This document shows positions 15,523-33,016 of a DNA stretch of 42,150 bases, one piece after another. Origin of the DNA: Promethearchaeota archaeon (lineage in GTDB: Archaea > Asgardarchaeota > Lokiarchaeia > Sigyniarchaeales > SOKP01); the NCBI GenBank assembly GCA_019058365.1, contig JAHPZE010000034.1, positions 1-42,150 on the forward strand, written 5' to 3'. The number at the start of each line of letters is the position of its first letter. Positions within the stretch are counted from its first letter, which is position 1. The position numbers and the translations under genes are program-made. Below the pieces are notes generated by a model. The model was not told the DNA's origin. It saw only the letters and a list, made by a program, of their open reading frames with translations, and ran no database searches.

Positions 15523-15876
15523 TTGCAACGTCTAAAAGAAATTTCGGAAAAAATTTCGAATAGAAAAATAAAATTAAGAAAATCTTTGGACTCAATAATA
15601 AGACAATTAAAGGATTTTGGAGCAATTAAAGTATATCTTTTTGGATCGTTTGCTAGAGATGAAATCGATGTAAATAGTGATATTGATTTATTAGCTATTA
15701 TGCCTTCAAATAAAACAGGAAAAGAATGGTTAAGTTTTATTTATAGTAATATTAAAAGAGATATTGCTTCAGATATTATTGTGTTTAATGATAATGAATT
15801 TAGGAATCAATTATCATCAAATTCATTTTTAAAGAATATTATCAACTCAGGGAGATTAGTATATGAAAAAGCCTAA
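15523..15876 (+). CDS. Minimal nucleotidyltransferase (MNT), antitoxin-like partner of HEPN
   Basis: LFGSFARDEIDVNSDIDL (GS...DxD motif). Confidence 0.88.
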   Translation: MQRLKEISEKISNRKIKLRKSLDSIIRQLKDFGAIKVYLFGSFARDEIDVNSDIDLLAIMPSNKTGKEWLSFIYSNIKRDIASDIIVFNDNEFRNQLSSNSFLKNIINSGRLVYEKA

Positions 15877-16279
15877 AAAAGAAGAAGCTTTAAGATGGTT
15901 TACGTACGCAAAAGATGAATTCACAGATGCAGATGAATTAAGAAAAAGAAAACGGTTTTATTTGGCTTTATTTCATTTCCAACAATCAACTGAAAAAGCG
16001 CTTAAAGCATATTTGTATTTAAAGGTGAAATCTATTGAAATTTTTTATACGCATTCTATAAATGATCTAATTAATATGGTAATTGAAATTGATCGAGATT
16101 TTAAAGAACTAATATCTGTAAAAAAGCTTGATCAATATTACATCCCTACTAGATATCCCAATGGTCTTCCTGGGGGTATTCCATCAAGATATTATGATGA
16201 TCCTGAAGAAGCAGAAAATGCTATGCTGCTAGCAAAAAGTATAATTAACTTAGTTGAAAAAAAAATAAATCAAGAATAA
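15863..16279 (+). CDS. HEPN domain protein
   Basis: FHFQQSTEKALKA, THSI and YIPTRYP; overlaps the MNT gene. Confidence 0.88.
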   Translation: MKKPKKEEALRWFTYAKDEFTDADELRKRKRFYLALFHFQQSTEKALKAYLYLKVKSIEIFYTHSINDLINMVIEIDRDFKELISVKKLDQYYIPTRYPNGLPGGIPSRYYDDPEEAENAMLLAKSIINLVEKKINQE

Positions 16280-16305: not shown

Positions 16306-17304
16306 TTATTCCTTTTCAAGTCCTAGCATCTTTATTATTAAATTTACCATAGAATAAGGATCTAACGATTTCTGAATAGCTTGATCTATATATTTTCCAA
16401 TTTCTTTGTCAGAATTAAGTAATTTTTCAACTTTTTCAGTTAATTTGTGTTTTAAAATCTGTAAGGTCTCATTTGTAATCCTATTTTTCATATAGTTCGA
16501 AATAACTCCTGATTCTTTTAAGAAGAATTCATGCTTTTTTATTAATTTAAGGAGCTCATCGAAATTTTCACCAGATCTGGAATTCACTTTTGTGATTTCT
16601 GGTGTCCACAGTTCTATTTTAGCATATTTTTCACTGAGATCCTTTGAATCGTATTTATAATTATTTCTAAATTCTAGCATTTGTTTTATCTCAGATACTT
16701 TTTTATCAGCTCCAGGAAAATCCATTTTATTTACAACAAATATATCTGTTATTTCCATTATACCCGATTTTATCGCTTGAATATCATCTCCTAACCCGGG
16801 TACTAATAAAACTACAATAGTTTGCGCAGATTTGAAGATATCAACTTCAGATTGTCCCACACCAACAGTCTCAATAATTATGATATCGCACGCATAAGCA
16901 TCAAGAATTTTTATTACATCCTCTGTAGCTCTAGCAAGGCCACCCAATTGTCCTCTATTAGCCATACTCCTAATAAAGACATTTTTGAGTGAGAAATTCT
17001 GTTTCATACGGATTCTATCTCCTAAGAGAGCGCCACCAGTTAAAGGGGACGTTGGATCAACGCAGATTATTCCAACCTTTTTACCTTCTTCAACATAAAA
17101 TTTAGTTAATGTTGAAATAAATGTCGATTTACCTGTTCCTGGAGCCCCCGTAATTCCTAATATATATGCTTTGCCAGTATACTTATAAATTGAGTTGACA
17201 ATTTCTTCAGCAGCATCAATATCATTCTCAACAAAAGTAATTAAACGAGCAACAGCTCTCGGATTGCCTTTTAATAGTTGAGAAATAAAATTAGAATAAT
17301 CCAT
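16306..17304 (-). CDS. meaB: Acyl-CoA mutase-associated GTPase metallochaperone MeaB/ArgK
   Basis: GITGAPGTGKST, VDPTSPLTGGALLGDRIRM, ETVGVGQSE and NKMD; in the operon with the mutase. Confidence 0.95.
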   Translation of the reverse strand: MDYSNFISQLLKGNPRAVARLITFVENDIDAAEEIVNSIYKYTGKAYILGITGAPGTGKSTFISTLTKFYVEEGKKVGIICVDPTSPLTGGALLGDRIRMKQNFSLKNVFIRSMANRGQLGGLARATEDVIKILDAYACDIIIIETVGVGQSEVDIFKSAQTIVVLLVPGLGDDIQAIKSGIMEITDIFVVNKMDFPGADKKVSEIKQMLEFRNNYKYDSKDLSEKYAKIELWTPEITKVNSRSGENFDELLKLIKKHEFFLKESGVISNYMKNRITNETLQILKHKLTEKVEKLLNSDKEIGKYIDQAIQKSLDPYSMVNLIIKMLGLEKE

Positions 17305-17312
17305 TCTATTAA

Positions 17313-17740
17313 TTATCTTTTCAGGTTATTTTTAACAAATTCAACGATTGTTTTTAAATTAGTACCAGGACCATAAAATCCTTTTAATCCATGGTTTTCT
17401 AAAAATACTTTATCTTCATCTGGAATAATCCCCCCTACAGCTACAAGAACATCATCTATACCATTTTCTTTTAATTTTTCCATGATTAAAGGACATAACG
17501 CATTATGAGCCCCAGATAACATACTTAACATAACAGCATCTGGATCTTCTTGTATAACTGTATTAACTACATCATCCGGGGTCTGATGTATTCCAGTGTA
17601 AATTACTTCCATTCCTGCATCCCTTAATGCTCTAGCTAAGACTTTGGCTCCCCTGTCATGCCCGTTAAGCCCGAGGACTACAAATCCTCGTCAAGCCCGG
17701 GCTTACAAACCAAAACCTTAATTTTTTTTTTCTCATTCAT
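17313..17740 (-). CDS. B12-dependent acyl-CoA mutase small (cobalamin-binding) subunit, split by a 26-nt intron: exon 1 17740-17692, exon 2 17665-17313, 133 aa
   Basis: Joined reading [41 protein letters not shown]...SMLSGAH...VGGIIP; 49+353 nt = 134 codons; AAGGAG 10 nt upstream of the ATG. The ORF track shows only the last 99 aa, which lack DxHxxG. Confidence 0.88.
17666..17691 (-). other. Candidate bulge-helix-bulge (BHB) mRNA intron, 26 nt (ACGAGGAUUUGUAGUCCUCGGGCUUA)
   Basis: The sense RNA GCCCG-GGCU-UGA-CGAGGA-UUUGUAG-UCCUCG-GGCU-UAA-CGGGC forms a 5-bp exon helix, a 4-bp central helix, two 3-nt bulges and a 6-bp intron helix; canonical cuts restore frame and motif. Confidence 0.85.
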
Positions 17741-17750
17741 TTTTAATTTT

Positions 17751-17756
17751 CTCCTT
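17751..17756 (-). promoter_or_regulatory. Shine-Dalgarno-like AAGGAG for the small mutase subunit
   Basis: 10 nt upstream of the ATG at 17740, overlapping the stop codon of the large subunit. Confidence 0.55.
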
Positions 17757-19410
17757 AAAAAATTGAATCTTCATAATAAGTCCCAAAGATCTCTTTTAAT
17801 GCATTTATAATTTCTCCAATTGATGTGTATTCCCGTACTGCATCTATAATAAAAGGCATTAAATTTTCTGTTCCTCTGGCTGCTTCTTTTAGTCTTTTTA
17901 ATTTTTCTTGTACTTTATCATTATTTCTTTCTTTTTTCAATTTATTGAGTTTTCTAATTTGTTCACTCGCAACCTCTTCATCAATTTTTAACAATGGCAC
18001 TGAGCATGGTTCTCTTTGCTCAAATTGATTTACAGCTACAATTTTTCTTTCTCTATTCTCTATTTCCCGCTGGTATTTATAAGACGCATTTGCAATCTCT
18101 TTTTGAAAGAAATTAGCCTTTATTGCTGGAACAACCCCACCAAGGTCTTCAATCCTTTTAAAATAATTTTCTGCCTCTTCTTCCATCCTATTTGTGAGCC
18201 ATTCAACATAATAAGACCCTGCTAAAGGATCAACAGTATCTGTTACTCCTGACTCATATGCAATTATTTGTTGAGTTCTTAAAGCTATTTTTACAGCATT
18301 TTCTGTTGGAAGACATAGAGCTTCGTCAAATGAATTAGTGTGTAAAGATTGTGTTCCTCCTAGAACTGAAGCTAACCCCTGAATTGTTACTCTAGCAATA
18401 TTATTTTCTGGTTCTTGAGCTGCCAGTGAAACACCAGCAGTTTGAGTATGGAATCGTAATCGCATTGATTCGGGCTTTTTTGCTCCATATCTATTTTTCA
18501 TGTGTCTAGCCCATATCCGTCTAGCAGCTCGGTATTTGCAAATTTCCTCAAAGAAATTATTATGAGAATTAAAAAAGAAAGATAAACGAGGAGCAAAATC
18601 ATCAATATCTAACCCCCTCTCGATAGCAGCTTCTACATAAGCAAATCCATTGGCTAATGTAAATGCTAATTCTTGAACTGCTGTAGATCCTGCTTCTCTT
18701 ATATGGTATCCACTAATACTAATTGCATACCATTGGGGTACATGTTTAGTGCAATACTCTATTGTATCAACTATAATTCGCATCGATGGTTCAGGAGGAA
18801 AAATCCATGACTTTTGAGCAATATACTCCTTTAAAATATCATTTTGAATGGTTCCTCTTAATTGTTCTGGAGTATGGCCCTGTTTTTCAGCGGTCACAAT
18901 ATATAAAGCTAATAAAATGGAAGCAGGACCATTTATAGTCATAGATGTACTTATTTTTGAGAGATCAATACCATCAAATAAAGTTTCCATGTCTTTTAAA
19001 GAGTCTATTGCAACACCCTCTTTTCCAATTTCTCCTAAAGCTCTTTGATCAGTTGCTTCAATGCCATAAATAGTGTGTAGACTAAATGCTACACTTAATC
19101 CAGTATTCCCATGATCAATTAAAAATTTATATCGTTCATTGGTTTGTTCTGCATTTCCAAATCCTGCGAATTGACGCATTGTCCATAGTTGCCCGCGATA
19201 CATGTTTGGATAAGCTCCCCGAGTGAACGGAAATTGTCCTGGAAATCCTAAATCAAGAGCATAATTAAAATCTTTAATATCATTAGGAGTATATAATCTT
19301 TTAATTTCGATTTCAGATAAATTTCTGAAACTTTGCTTTCTTTCTTTTTTTAATGAGATAGAATTCTCCCAATCTTCCATTTCTTGTTTAATATTATCAA
19401 ATTCAGTCAT
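17755..19410 (-). CDS. B12-dependent acyl-CoA mutase large subunit (methylmalonyl-CoA mutase family; isobutyryl-CoA mutase-like specificity residues)
   Basis: PGQFPFTRG, WTMRQFAGFG, QNDILKEYIAQ, SISGYHIREAG and GGTQSLHTNSFDEAL. Confidence 0.93.
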   Translation of the reverse strand: MTEFDNIKQEMEDWENSISLKKERKQSFRNLSEIEIKRLYTPNDIKDFNYALDLGFPGQFPFTRGAYPNMYRGQLWTMRQFAGFGNAEQTNERYKFLIDHGNTGLSVAFSLHTIYGIEATDQRALGEIGKEGVAIDSLKDMETLFDGIDLSKISTSMTINGPASILLALYIVTAEKQGHTPEQLRGTIQNDILKEYIAQKSWIFPPEPSMRIIVDTIEYCTKHVPQWYAISISGYHIREAGSTAVQELAFTLANGFAYVEAAIERGLDIDDFAPRLSFFFNSHNNFFEEICKYRAARRIWARHMKNRYGAKKPESMRLRFHTQTAGVSLAAQEPENNIARVTIQGLASVLGGTQSLHTNSFDEALCLPTENAVKIALRTQQIIAYESGVTDTVDPLAGSYYVEWLTNRMEEEAENYFKRIEDLGGVVPAIKANFFQKEIANASYKYQREIENRERKIVAVNQFEQREPCSVPLLKIDEEVASEQIRKLNKLKKERNNDKVQEKLKRLKEAARGTENLMPFIIDAVREYTSIGEIINALKEIFGTYYEDSIF

Positions 19411-19771: not shown

Positions 19772-20698
19772 ATGATTATGGGACTATTTACAGTGAAAAA
19801 TATAATAAGTCTTATTTCCATGGGTCCATCATTTTTACAGTCAATAGTAAGAAATGTTCCGTTATATGTGAATTATGATTTAACTTGGCAATGCAATTTA
19901 AAATGCAAGCATTGTTATTTTTTCTCATCAACAACGGAATTAAAAAACAAAAGAAATGAATTATCGGACGAAGAATGGATCAAAGTTTTTAAATACCATA
20001 GAAAGTTAGGAACGAAAATAGCAGTTTTAACTGGTGGAGAGCCTACTTTAAGAATGGATGTTATAAAAGAAGCGATTAAAATTTTTCCCTCAGTTCAGGT
20101 TGTATCAAATGGAGTGATTGAAATACCTCACTTTAGTGGGTATAAACAACCAAAATACTGGGTAAGTATAGATGGTACCAAGGAAACTCATGATGAGATA
20201 AGAGGTGCAAAGATTTTTGATAAAGTCATACAGAACATTCGGGAGAATAATCCGGTTGTTACCTCAGCCATCATGACATTAAATTACAAAGAAATTGAAG
20301 ATATTGCTAAAATTGCTTATAATAATGGTGCTTCTGGATTAATCTTTCAATTATATACCGACTATCCTGGCAGCCCACTCTTATTAAAAGGTAATATATT
20401 AAAAAAGACAATAAGAGACATTTTAAAAGTAATGCGTGAATATGGAAATTTTATTTTCTATTCCAAAAAAATGTTAGAAGTATACCTATCAAAAGAATTT
20501 GTGCCATATTGCATATTCAAAACTGGGCAAATAAAAAGTTTCTATCCTGATGGAACACAAAAGTTTTGTGTTATGGGAAATTCACCACTTTTATGTGAAA
20601 ATTGTGGATGTGTCGTGCCAATTGCTGCTTATGCTTTATTTAGGAAATTTGATTCCGGTACAGTTGATAAAGCTAGAAAATTGTTTAATTTTACGTAA
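19772..20698 (+). CDS. Radical SAM protein with a C-terminal Cys cluster
   Basis: CNLKCKHC, GGEP, SIDG...HDEIRG and C-terminal C..C...CENCGC. Confidence 0.88.
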   Translation: MIMGLFTVKNIISLISMGPSFLQSIVRNVPLYVNYDLTWQCNLKCKHCYFFSSTTELKNKRNELSDEEWIKVFKYHRKLGTKIAVLTGGEPTLRMDVIKEAIKIFPSVQVVSNGVIEIPHFSGYKQPKYWVSIDGTKETHDEIRGAKIFDKVIQNIRENNPVVTSAIMTLNYKEIEDIAKIAYNNGASGLIFQLYTDYPGSPLLLKGNILKKTIRDILKVMREYGNFIFYSKKMLEVYLSKEFVPYCIFKTGQIKSFYPDGTQKFCVMGNSPLLCENCGCVVPIAAYALFRKFDSGTVDKARKLFNFT

Positions 20699-32872: not shown

Positions 32873-33016
32873 AATCTTTTTTTTATTTTCTTTTTTGATA
32901 ATTACCGCTTCAAAACCAAAAAACCTTTAACTAATATTTATATAATTTGATTTAAGATTTTCTTAAGCTTCAATTTAATAAAGGTTTATTTATTACAAAA
33001 AAATCTGGTAGTTCTT

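What the first reader, a model, noticed from the sequence alone, without database searches (positions are those of the whole stretch)
17660..17702. Canonical bulge-helix-bulge intron inside the cobalamin-binding motif of an acyl-CoA mutase small-subunit mRNA
Seen: the minus-strand gene reads ...AAG CCC GGG CTT G[ACGAGGATTTGTAGTCCTCGGGCTTA]AC GGG CAT GAC AGG GGA. Unspliced, it ends after 20 aa at a UAG inside the insert (KPGLDEDL*). The RNA folds as exon helix GCCCG/CGGGC (5 bp), central helix GGCU/GGCU (G.U, G-C, C-G, U.G), 3-nt bulges UGA and UAA on opposite strands, and intron helix CGAGGA/UCCUCG closing a 7-nt loop. Cutting after the 2nd nt of each bulge removes exactly 17666-17691 (26 nt) and rebuilds the GAC codon, giving [13 protein letters not shown] with the DxHxxG cobalt-ligand motif in a 133-aa protein. 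The 43-nt motif is 27/43 G+C in a very AT-rich window. The rest of the gene, its SD and both operon neighbours look intact. Established: BHB motifs are the substrate of archaeal tRNA-splicing endonuclease EndA (ligated by RtcB), and the well-characterised archaeal mRNA example is cbf5. Inference: this is a functional spliced intron in a metabolic gene of a probable Asgard archaeon, which annotation would miss as a truncated or pseudo gene.
Basis: partly seen in the sequence, partly recalled or inferred. Interest (0 to 1): 0.96.

Follow-up and report, generated by a model that had tools for sequence, protein, structure and literature searches.

The report
tRNA-type mini-intron splitting Asgard mutase gene
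The gene for the vitamin-B12-binding subunit of an acyl-CoA mutase in this Asgard archaeon is interrupted by a 26-base insert shaped like an archaeal tRNA intron, and comparison with relatives shows the gene is in use and can only be read after that insert is cut out of the mRNA, which the papers I could search report inside a coding sequence for only one other archaeal gene (cbf5).

Summary
On the minus strand, a 26-nt insert (17691..17666) splits the Asp codon of the DxHxxG cobalamin-binding motif of an acyl-CoA mutase small subunit gene (17740..17313).

- **Fold:** the RNA forms a strict hBHBh' motif, and this is the minimum-energy fold in every context up to 351 nt.
- **Conservation:** the same site carries an insert of 26, 28 or 32 nt in 8 of 154 genomes searched in the order, plus 3 metagenome contigs.
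- **Covariation:** across the 11 versions, 98.4% of cells pair, 8 of 17 pairs change on both sides, and 0 of 500 shuffles match this.
- **Splice product:** cutting after the second nucleotide of each bulge restores [10 protein letters not shown] in all 11.
- **Selection:** exon 2 has dN/dS of 0.017-0.042 with synonymous sites near saturation, so this is not a pseudogene.
- **Rival recoding models:** ribosome hopping fails in 4 of 8 genomes. A single frameshift type cannot serve inserts of 26, 28 and 32 nt.
- **Enzymes:** the genome encodes a catalytic EndA, a second EndA paralogue lacking the catalytic His, and RtcB.
- **Distribution:** carriers are scattered on the gene tree, which forces at least 5 gain or loss events.

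This scan had already noted the same intron site on other DNA (at least 5 other genomes) and other mRNA mini-introns in this genome. The searchable literature reports only cbf5 and one Haloferax 5'-UTR case.

The parts
17313..17740 (-). Whole interrupted gene: acyl-CoA mutase B12-binding small subunit (133 aa after splicing)
   Evidence: Exon 2 matches TIGR00640 acid_CoA_mut_C at 138 bits (cut-off 57), profile positions 14-128 of 132, and Pfam B12-binding PF02310.
17692..17740 (-). Exon 1: ATG 17740 through [16 protein letters not shown] plus the first base (G) of the Asp codon
   Evidence: The peptide and its start are conserved in intronless orthologues.
17666..17691 (-). 26-nt BHB intron (ACGAGGAUUUGUAGUCCUCGGGCUUA), phase 1, containing the in-frame UAG
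   Evidence: Homologous inserts of 26, 28 or 32 nt occupy the same site in 10 other sequences.
17313..17665 (-). Exon 2: the AC of the Asp codon, then GHDRGAKV... (116 aa) and the stop codon
   Evidence: P0001. dN/dS is 0.017-0.042 among intron carriers.
17660..17702 (-). Complete hBHBh' motif
   Evidence: It is the MFE fold. Covariation is shown.
17698..17702 (-). 5' strand of the exon-exon helix h (GCCCG), pairing with 17660-17664 (CGGGC)
   Evidence: All 55 cells pair across 11 sequences, with one C-G to U.G change.
17694..17697 (-). 5' strand of the central 4-bp helix H (GGCU, end of exon 1), pairing with 17668-17671 (GGCU, 3' end of the intron)
   Evidence: 100% of cells pair. G-C becomes A-U, a change on both sides, in two genomes.
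17691..17693 (-). 5' bulge UGA, with the predicted cut after G 17692
17665..17667 (-). 3' bulge UAA, with the predicted cut after A 17666
17672..17690 (-). Intron hairpin h' (CGAGGAUU / AGUCCUCG, 8 bp) with the 3-nt loop 17680-17682
   Evidence: 7 of its 8 pairs show changes on both sides among the 11 sequences.
17751..17754 (-). GGAG ribosome-binding site, 10 nt upstream of the ATG
   Evidence: read directly from the sequence.
17755..19410 (-). Upstream operon gene: acyl-CoA mutase catalytic subunit (551 aa)
   Evidence: PF01642 at 742 bits and TIGR00641 at 773 bits.
16306..17304 (-). Downstream operon gene: MeaB G-protein chaperone (332 aa)
   Evidence: PF03308 at 282 bits and TIGR00750 at 334 bits.

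Best explanation
This is a genuine archaeal bulge-helix-bulge intron inside a protein-coding gene.

The operon (mutase catalytic subunit, B12-binding subunit, MeaB) is transcribed. In the pre-mRNA, the last 9 nt of exon 1, the 26-nt insert and the first 6 nt of exon 2 fold into a strict hBHBh' motif. The tRNA-splicing endonuclease EndA, here most likely an (alpha-beta)2 heterotetramer, cuts after the second nucleotide of each 3-nt bulge. RtcB joins the exons and probably circularises the 26-mer. The ligated mRNA reads CUU GAC GGG CAU and encodes the complete DxHxxG cobalamin-binding subunit. The unspliced mRNA gives only a 20-aa peptide.

Shown here: the structure, its conservation and covariation, the exact frame and motif repair, purifying selection on the downstream exon, and the presence of the enzymes. 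Inferred: the cleavage and ligation themselves.

The intron looks dispensable. Close sister species lack it. It was either lost repeatedly from an ancestral copy or spread between lineages. The flanking imperfect direct repeats (CGGGCTTGAC / CGGGCTTAAC), which follow from the two-fold symmetry of the motif, could make deletion at the DNA level easy.
For: 1. The MFE fold is exactly hBHBh' and stays so in up to 351 nt of context.
2. The same codon is interrupted in 8 species genomes (7 of 54 searched in the genus, 1 in another genus of the family) and in 3 metagenome contigs.
3. Covariation on 11 sequences: 98.4% of cells pair, 8 of 17 pairs change on both sides, 0 of 500 shuffles reach this, and slid controls pair in 12-55% of cells. 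One of the covarying pairs lies in the exon-intron central helix.
4. Cutting after the second bulge nucleotide yields [10 protein letters not shown] in 11 of 11, whether the intron is 26, 28 or 32 nt.
5. Exon 2 has dN/dS of 0.017-0.042, with dS from 0.76 to saturation among carriers.
6. In 10 of 11 sequences the outer pairs of helix H are G.U and U.G. These would be C-A mismatches on the other strand, so the structure belongs to sense-strand RNA.
7. The enzymes are present. One EndA paralogue keeps Tyr, His and Lys and best matches the A. pernix alpha subunit 3P1Z_B. The second has Ser where the catalytic His aligns. There is one RtcB.
8. tRNA genes of this genome are heavily interrupted: 19 of the 30 genes ARAGORN finds have a called intron.
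9. In carriers, the exon codons that form the helices are almost fixed (CCC GGG CTT ... GGG C). Intronless orthologues use many synonymous codons there.
Against: There is no RNA-level evidence. No protein identical to exon 1 plus exon 2 of this genome was found in the large protein collection.

A motif of this stem strength occurs about once per genome by chance in the mirror-topology control. The structure alone would therefore not be enough.

My ORF-fusion census could not show a genome-wide excess of such introns.

Early translation could in principle compete with folding and splicing, because the intron lies only 49 nt into the coding sequence.
Confidence: 0.9

Rival explanations
1. Translational recoding instead of splicing. 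Either the ribosome hops from the Leu codon CUU before the insert to the repeated CUU near its end (as in phage T4 gene 60), or it frameshifts within the insert.
For: The insert is flanked by an imperfect direct repeat (CGGGCUUGAC / CGGGCUUAAC). It contains a stable hairpin and a stop codon soon after the take-off site. Hopping CUU to CUU would stay in frame and give KPGL-N-GHD. Two intronless relatives (G024, G012) do encode Asn there.
Against: In 4 of 8 genomes the take-off and landing codons differ, or the next codon would be Tyr. Insert lengths of 26, 28 and 32 nt need different frameshift directions. Substitutions in the insert follow base pairing, not codon structure. The BHB rule gives the conserved Asp in 11 of 11.
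Confidence: 0.03
2. A dead gene. The insert is a disabling insertion, or a small palindromic element with a target-site duplication, and the small subunit is a pseudogene backed up by the paralogue on contig C46.
For: Read unspliced, the gene stops after 20 aa. The genome has a second small-subunit paralogue at C46:21090-21437, 43% identical. The direct repeats around a hairpin resemble a target-site duplication.
Against: dN/dS is 0.017-0.042 over exon 2, with saturated synonymous divergence among carriers. There are no other defects in 11 copies. The start codon, RBS and exon 1 peptide are conserved. The structure is kept by compensatory changes.
Confidence: 0.02
3. The intron is spliced but also acts as a regulatory switch. 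Splicing efficiency, or a competing fold, would set how much B12-binding subunit is made. Alternatively, cleavage without ligation would destabilise the distal part of the operon mRNA.
For: The intron sits in the cobalt-ligand motif, at the start of the gene, and carries an in-frame stop. A sibling note of this scan (e1-5554130) proposes a competing fold. In Haloferax, removal of a BHB intron from a 5' UTR affects expression (PMC7714728).
Against: All suboptimal folds within 2 kcal/mol are variants of the BHB, and the BHB pairs have probabilities of 0.84-1.0 in every context tested. Sister species with nearly identical proteins lack the intron, so it is dispensable. No ligand-binding or extra conserved element fits in 26 nt. 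Apart from loop-proximal U residues next to the hairpin stem, only the helices and cut sites are conserved.
Confidence: 0.08
4. Assembly or sequencing artefact: the insert is not in the real DNA.
For: The genome is a 54-contig assembly rated 6.6% contaminated. I could not inspect raw reads.
Against: Homologous but non-identical inserts lie at the same site in 8 separately assembled genomes and 3 metagenome contigs from other projects.
Confidence: 0.01

Closest known systems
BHB intron in the cbf5 (pseudouridine synthase) pre-mRNA of Crenarchaeota (Watanabe 2002; Yoshinari 2006; Yokobori 2009, PMC2738675)
   Same: Both are short introns inside an archaeal coding sequence, defined by a bulge-helix-bulge fold. 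The cbf5 intron is cut by the hetero-oligomeric EndA and then ligated. It too has a lineage-specific, patchy distribution with losses, and gene finders mis-predict it.
   Different: The gene is different (a metabolic B12 enzyme subunit, not an RNA-modification enzyme) and so is the phylum (Asgard / Promethearchaeota). Most cbf5 introns have relaxed, unconventional BHB motifs. This one is a strict hBHBh' with a 5-bp exon helix. cbf5 splicing is shown by experiment. This case is inferred from sequence comparison only.
Archaeal tRNA introns (hBHBh' motif; Marck and Grosjean 2003), including the heavily interrupted tRNA genes of Asgard archaea (bioRxiv 10.64898/2026.10.13.758758)
   Same: The geometry is identical: two 3-nt bulges on opposite strands, a 4-bp helix, a cut after the second bulge nucleotide, and a size within the tRNA-intron range. 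The same enzymes are expected. The Asgard tRNA preprint likewise reports repeated, apparently independent gains and two EndA paralogues in most genomes.
   Different: The host RNA is an mRNA with no tRNA body, so recognition must rest on the BHB alone. That preprint does not mention mRNA or protein-gene introns.
BHB intron in the 5' UTR of HVO_1309 mRNA in Haloferax volcanii (Schwarz et al. 2020, PMC7714728)
   Same: It is an EndA substrate in an mRNA outside the Crenarchaeota. Cleavage was confirmed in vitro.
   Different: It lies in the untranslated leader and does not interrupt the reading frame. The Haloferax enzyme is a different EndA type.
Unconventional cytoplasmic splicing of HAC1/XBP1 mRNA in eukaryotes (IRE1 cleavage, ligation by RtcB in metazoa) - from my own knowledge, with the RtcB/XBP1 link mentioned in PMC8718801
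   Same: In both, a short intron (26 nt in XBP1) is removed from an mRNA by a protein endonuclease acting on a stem-loop, then ligated by the tRNA ligase. Removal changes the reading frame.
   Different: The endonuclease (IRE1 kinase/RNase) and the recognition motif (twin 7-nt loops) are different, and that splicing is regulated by stress. There is no evidence of homology. This is an analogy only.

Membership tests
Archaeal BHB (EndA/RtcB-type) intron | Two 3-nt bulges on opposite strands, each 3' of a 4-bp central helix | tested here: met
   The MFE fold is as required. The layout is explicit in 11 sequences. The central helix pairs in 100% of cells.
Archaeal BHB (EndA/RtcB-type) intron | Flanking helices h (exon-exon) and h' (intron) of at least 2 bp, the strict hBHBh' form | tested here: met
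   h is 5 bp, mostly G-C. h' is 7-10 bp in all copies.
Archaeal BHB (EndA/RtcB-type) intron | Cutting after the second nucleotide of each bulge and joining the exons yields a functional product | tested here: met
   In silico, this restores CUN GAC GGG CAY, that is L-D-G-H of DxHxxG, in 11 of 11 despite lengths of 26, 28 and 32 nt.
Archaeal BHB (EndA/RtcB-type) intron | The structure is maintained in evolution by compensatory changes | tested here: met
   8 of 17 pairs change on both sides, 0 of 500 shuffles reach this, and slid controls collapse.
Archaeal BHB (EndA/RtcB-type) intron | The host genome encodes the splicing endonuclease and the RtcB ligase | tested here: met
   There are two PF01974-plus-PF02778 proteins and one RtcB at 568 bits.
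Archaeal BHB (EndA/RtcB-type) intron | Cleavage and ligation are observed (a spliced RNA, an excised linear or circular intron) | not testable with these tools
No exon1-plus-exon2 protein identical to this genome's was found.
(alpha-beta)2 heterotetrameric EndA (broad-specificity type) | Two distinct subunits, one catalytic (Tyr-His-Lys) and one structural | tested here: met
   The L001 ORF best matches A. pernix 3P1Z_B and keeps Y, H and K. The L002 ORF has Ser at the position aligned with M. jannaschii His125.
(alpha-beta)2 heterotetrameric EndA (broad-specificity type) | The two subunits assemble as a dimer of heterodimers, and the alpha subunit carries the specific loop that gives broad specificity | not tested
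   I did not run a complex prediction or a loop analysis.
Acyl-CoA mutase B12-binding small subunit (TIGR00640 / PF02310) | Family score above the cut-off, and a DxHxxG cobalt-ligand motif | tested here: met
   Exon 2 alone scores 138 bits (cut-off 57), covering profile positions 14-128 of 132. The motif is complete only after splicing.
Acyl-CoA mutase B12-binding small subunit (TIGR00640 / PF02310) | Genomic association with the catalytic subunit and the MeaB chaperone | tested here: met
   The neighbours are at 17755-19410 and 16306-17304. MeaB is linked in all orthologues. The catalytic subunit is not adjacent in five of them.

The most novel reading that the evidence does not exclude
This intron is one visible member of a general layer of mRNA splicing in Lokiarchaeia-type Asgard archaea. 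On this reading, the tRNA-splicing machinery (a broad-specificity EndA plus RtcB) routinely removes mini-introns from many protein-coding transcripts. These introns would be gained and lost repeatedly, preferentially at G+C-rich codons of conserved Gly/Pro motifs, which can form the exon helix in an AT-rich genome. That would be a protein-only mRNA intron system in the closest prokaryotic relatives of eukaryotes.
Probability: 0.5. Interest if true: 0.88.

Novelty: new member of a known kind. Interest (0 to 1): 0.72.

Why it matters
**What is new.** The papers I could search document endonuclease-spliced introns inside an archaeal coding sequence for one gene only (cbf5, Crenarchaeota), and in one 5' UTR. 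A strict, conserved, covarying BHB intron in a metabolic enzyme gene of an Asgard archaeon extends the phenomenon to a new phylum and a new class of gene.

**Consequence for annotation.** Gene callers would probably report such genes as truncated or broken. I did not test this.

[quoted passage not shown] A working route for removing introns from mRNA with the tRNA-splicing enzymes bears on how intron-containing protein genes could be tolerated before the spliceosome existed. It also parallels RtcB-dependent XBP1 splicing.

**A usable test case.** The carrier and non-carrier sister species, and the Asn "scar" allele, give a natural system for studying the gain and loss of such introns.

Tried and rejected
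2. **Spliced product in the protein collection.** The search found only intronless relatives at 97% identity or less, and nothing identical to this genome's exons. An exact look-up of the spliced protein was not possible, because it has no reference and is too long to type.
3. **Genome-wide census of BHB mRNA introns.**
   - Strict scan plus ORF fusion gave 2364 real against 2299 mirror hits at loose thresholds.
   - At stem score 32 or more, the counts were 12 against 11.
   - The relaxed scan gave 245 against 169 when both sides had at least 100 open codons.
   - Chance fusions of adjacent genes dominate all of these. The census is inconclusive, neither for nor against further introns.
4. 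**Ribosome-hopping model.** Rejected.
5. **Competing-fold switch.** Not supported.
6. **Copies of the intron elsewhere in the genome, as for a mobile or tRNA-derived element.** blastn-short found only chance matches of 13 nt or less.
7. **Rad51-family paralogue at C46:248812-249396.** Its family match stops at profile position 203 of 244, and the frame changes there. My routine found no clean BHB that repairs it, so I left it unresolved.
8. **AMP phosphorylase.** I confirmed the 30-nt in-frame insert with a TAG. The strict cut rule removes 28 nt there, so that motif is relaxed.

Full report
**Observation**

On the minus strand, an ORF starts at ATG 17740, 10 nt after a GGAG. It reads [20 protein letters not shown] and stops at TAG 17680-17678. 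In another frame, from 17663, runs [17 protein letters not shown]... for 116 aa up to the stop codon at 17315-17313.

Deleting 17691..17666 (26 nt) joins CTT G to AC GGG CAT. This gives a 133-aa protein with an intact DxHxxG motif.

The RNA from 17702 to 17660 folds as follows:
- exon helix GCCCG/CGGGC;
- central helix GGCU/GGCU (G.U, G-C, C-G, U.G);
- 3-nt bulges UGA and UAA, each 3' of the central helix on its own strand;
- an 8-bp intron hairpin.

This is the layout of the canonical archaeal hBHBh' motif. In a pre-tRNA with an intron at 37/38, the 3' end of the 5' exon likewise pairs with the 3' end of the intron (my own knowledge of Marck and Grosjean 2003, consistent with the description quoted).

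ViennaRNA returns exactly this structure as the MFE: -22.8 kcal/mol, z = -3.8, 0 of 200 shuffles as stable. It keeps all 17 pairs in contexts of 121, 201 and 351 nt. Pair probabilities are 0.84-1.00, apart from the loop-closing end of the intron hairpin at 0.56. Every suboptimal fold within 2 kcal/mol is a variant of it. The motif is 63% G+C in a region of 32-34%.

**Chance**

I scanned both strands of the whole 4.74-Mb genome for strict hBHBh' motifs with introns of about 16-124 nt. This motif is the single highest-scoring one. A mirror-topology control, with each bulge 5' of the central helix, also reaches that score once. The fold by itself is therefore about a once-per-genome event. Significance comes from where it lies and what its removal does.

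**The gene and its neighbours**

- Exon 2 matches TIGR00640 (acyl-CoA mutase C-terminal B12-binding domain) at 138 bits against a cut-off of 57. It covers profile positions 14-128 of 132, so exactly the N-terminal stretch is missing.
- Upstream (17755-19410) lies the catalytic subunit: PF01642 at 742 bits.
- Downstream (16306-17304) lies the MeaB chaperone.

**The organism**

The window is contig C6 of a 54-contig assembly rated 100% complete and 6.6% contaminated. Near-identical orthologues in named records belong to "Promethearchaeota archaeon" and "Candidatus Hermodarchaeota archaeon" MAGs. Promethearchaeota is the Asgard phylum in the NCBI taxonomy.

**Comparative evidence**

With the exon-2 protein I collected orthologues from relatives and read the junction in each. 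Most read ...KPGLD|GHD straight through. Four had an insert at the same codon.

Two pattern searches over all 154 genomes held for the order raised this to eight carriers:
- 7 of the 54 genomes searched in the genus (G000, G011, G020, G022, G083, G093, G102);
- 1 in another genus of the family (G067);
- none in the other 100 genomes.

A metagenome scan added three more distinct copies: L157, L188 and L243.

The inserts are 26 nt (nine copies), 28 nt (G083) and 32 nt (G067). Their hairpin sequences all differ, yet each forms h = 5 bp, H = 4 bp and h' = 7-10 bp. Cutting after the second nucleotide of each bulge gives [10 protein letters not shown] in every case.

On the 11-sequence alignment A2:
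- 98.4% of cells are standard pairs;
- 8 of 17 pairs show changes on both sides (21 cells);
- 0 of 500 column shuffles reach the observed values;
- sliding the 3' partners by 1-3 columns drops pairing to 12-55%.

One covarying pair (G-C to A-U) lies in the central helix, between exon 1 and the 3' end of the intron. There a synonymous-site change in exon 1 (Gly codon GGG to GGA) is matched by a change in the intron.

The G.U and U.G pairs closing the central helix, present in 10 of 11 sequences, would be C-A mismatches on the opposite strand. The selected structure is therefore sense-strand RNA.

**The gene is in use**

Among carriers, exon 2 has dN/dS of 0.017-0.042, while dS runs from 0.76 to saturation. 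Exon 1, its start codon and its RBS are also conserved, with synonymous differences. The segment GHDRGAKV..., immediately after the intron, is conserved at the protein level with synonymous changes. So translation must enter exon 2 from upstream, not from the internal Met at 17612.

In carriers, the codons that form the helices are nearly fixed (CCC GGG CTT G ... AC GGG C). Intronless orthologues use CCA/CCT/CCG, GGT/GGA/GGC, TTA/TTG and mostly GAT at the same positions. This is an extra constraint on the exons, as expected if the fold matters.

**Rivals**

- *Hopping.* A hop between the repeated CUU codons would stay in frame and give Asn. In 4 of 8 genomes, however, the landing codon differs or the next codon is Tyr.
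- *Frameshifting.* It cannot serve lengths of 26, 32 and 28 nt with one direction of shift. The insert also evolves by pair-preserving changes, not codon-preserving ones.
- *Pseudogene.* Excluded.
- *Assembly artefact.* Excluded by 11 independent assemblies carrying homologous but different inserts.
- *Competing-fold switch* (a sibling note on this stretch). Not supported by the ensemble, and sister species manage without the intron. A regulatory side-effect of splicing efficiency cannot be excluded.

**Machinery**

The genome has two full-length EndA-family genes, each with PF02778 plus PF01974.
- The C26 copy best matches the catalytic alpha subunits of the crenarchaeal heterotetramers (A. 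pernix 3P1Z_B, E = 1e-35). In that alignment it keeps Tyr, His and Lys.
- The C12 copy aligns best with M. jannaschii EndA, but has Ser at the position of catalytic His125.

This fits an (alpha-beta)2 enzyme. That is the type reported to cleave cbf5 pre-mRNA and relaxed motifs outside a tRNA body (PMC2738675; PMC5829648 abstract). It is also what the Asgard tRNA preprint reports for 44 of 60 genomes.

One RtcB is present, at 568 bits. ARAGORN finds only 30 tRNA genes in this genome rated 100% complete, and 19 of them have called introns. The splicing system must therefore be heavily used.

**Distribution and history**

On a tree of exon 2 plus MeaB (27 rows; rows G038 and G039 left out because their downstream gene did not align at the start), carriers are scattered. 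Starred branches force at least 5 changes. Three well-supported sister pairs are carrier/non-carrier: G083/G019, G093/G002 and G102/G018. This means either many losses of an old intron or spread of an intron-bearing allele. I cannot tell which.

The two halves of the motif form an imperfect direct repeat (CGGGCTTGAC ... CGGGCTTAAC), a by-product of its two-fold symmetry. G024 is intronless and reads CCCGGGCTTAACGGGCAT. That is exactly what deletion between the repeats, retaining the 3' copy, would leave. It turns the motif Asp into Asn. This is inference only. G012 also has Asn (AAT).

**Other introns in this genome**

Earlier notes of this scan report BHB-like mini-introns in radA, AMP phosphorylase, lsrF, uL11 and a JAMM protease of this genome. 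They also report the same mutase site in at least five other genomes, with inserts of 18-32 nt.

I checked one of these myself. AMP phosphorylase (C9:32411-33973) matches TIGR03327 over positions 1-500 with one in-frame TAG. The stop lies in a 30-nt insert that splits DKHST|GG and forms a hairpin plus a 4-bp helix. The strict cut rule would remove 28 nt, not 30, so that motif is relaxed.

My own motif-plus-ORF census was inconclusive.

**Literature**

In the library I could search, a 2020 paper states that only one BHB intron had been reported in an archaeal mRNA besides its own 5'-UTR case, namely cbf5 (PMC7714728). The cbf5 paper says other predicted cases were unconfirmed (PMC2738675). The 2026 Asgard tRNA-intron preprint does not mention mRNA. 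A 2025 EndA structure paper and a 2026 review of non-canonical splicing add no Asgard mRNA case. Subscription journals are not covered by this library.

**Verdict**

This is a real, conserved, strict BHB intron in a live protein-coding gene of an Asgard archaeon. Splicing by EndA and RtcB is the only model that fits all 11 copies. It is a new member of a known kind (cbf5-type pre-mRNA introns). Direct RNA evidence is still missing.

Noticed in passing
L016 (G024), junction region around locus position 1500; also L012 (G012): Two intronless orthologues encode Asn instead of the motif Asp (KPGL-N-GHD). G024 reads CCCGGGCTTAACGGGCAT. That is exactly the product expected if the intron were deleted at the DNA level between its flanking direct repeats, retaining the 3' copy.
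   Followed up: partly
G000 contig C9:32411-33973 (+), insert around 32924-32953 (locus L252): The AMP phosphorylase gene matches its family end to end but has a 30-nt in-frame insert with a TAG splitting DKHST|GG. It forms a hairpin plus a 4-bp helix, but the strict BHB cut rule removes 28 nt, so the motif is relaxed.
   Followed up: partly
G000 contig C46:248500-249396 (-) (locus L131): The family match of a Rad51-family paralogue stops at profile position 203 of 244, and the reading frame shifts by +1 near ...STRM / RVMFKTKG.... Removing 13 nt (GATGCCACTTTCG) would restore the frame. I found no clean BHB there.
   Followed up: partly
whole genome G000: ARAGORN finds only 30 tRNA genes in a genome rated 100% complete. 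19 of them have called introns, of 7-78 nt plus one doubtful call of 960 nt, at various positions. Many tRNA genes are probably hidden by introns.
   Followed up: no
window 15523-16279 (+): Overlapping genes for a nucleotidyltransferase (PF18765/PF01909, 117 aa) and a HEPN-domain protein (PF05168, 138 aa) form a likely MNT-HEPN toxin-antitoxin pair, next to the mutase operon.
   Followed up: no
L004 (G021), L013 (G011), L016 (G024), L021 (G004), L043 (G093): In five orthologous loci the gene upstream of the small subunit is not the mutase catalytic subunit, while MeaB stays linked downstream. The operon has been rearranged within the genus, independently of whether the intron is present.
   Followed up: no
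window 17693-17704 and 17660-17671 (-): The exon sequence GCCCGGGC is itself a palindrome, and intronless relatives such as G023 already carry AAGCCCGGGCTTGATGGGCAT. So both halves of the exon helix exist without the intron. G+C-rich Pro/Gly codons of conserved motifs may be preferred landing sites in this AT-rich genome.
   Followed up: no
window 19772-20698 (+): A radical SAM protein gene (PF04055, 308 aa) is transcribed divergently from the mutase operon.
   Followed up: no
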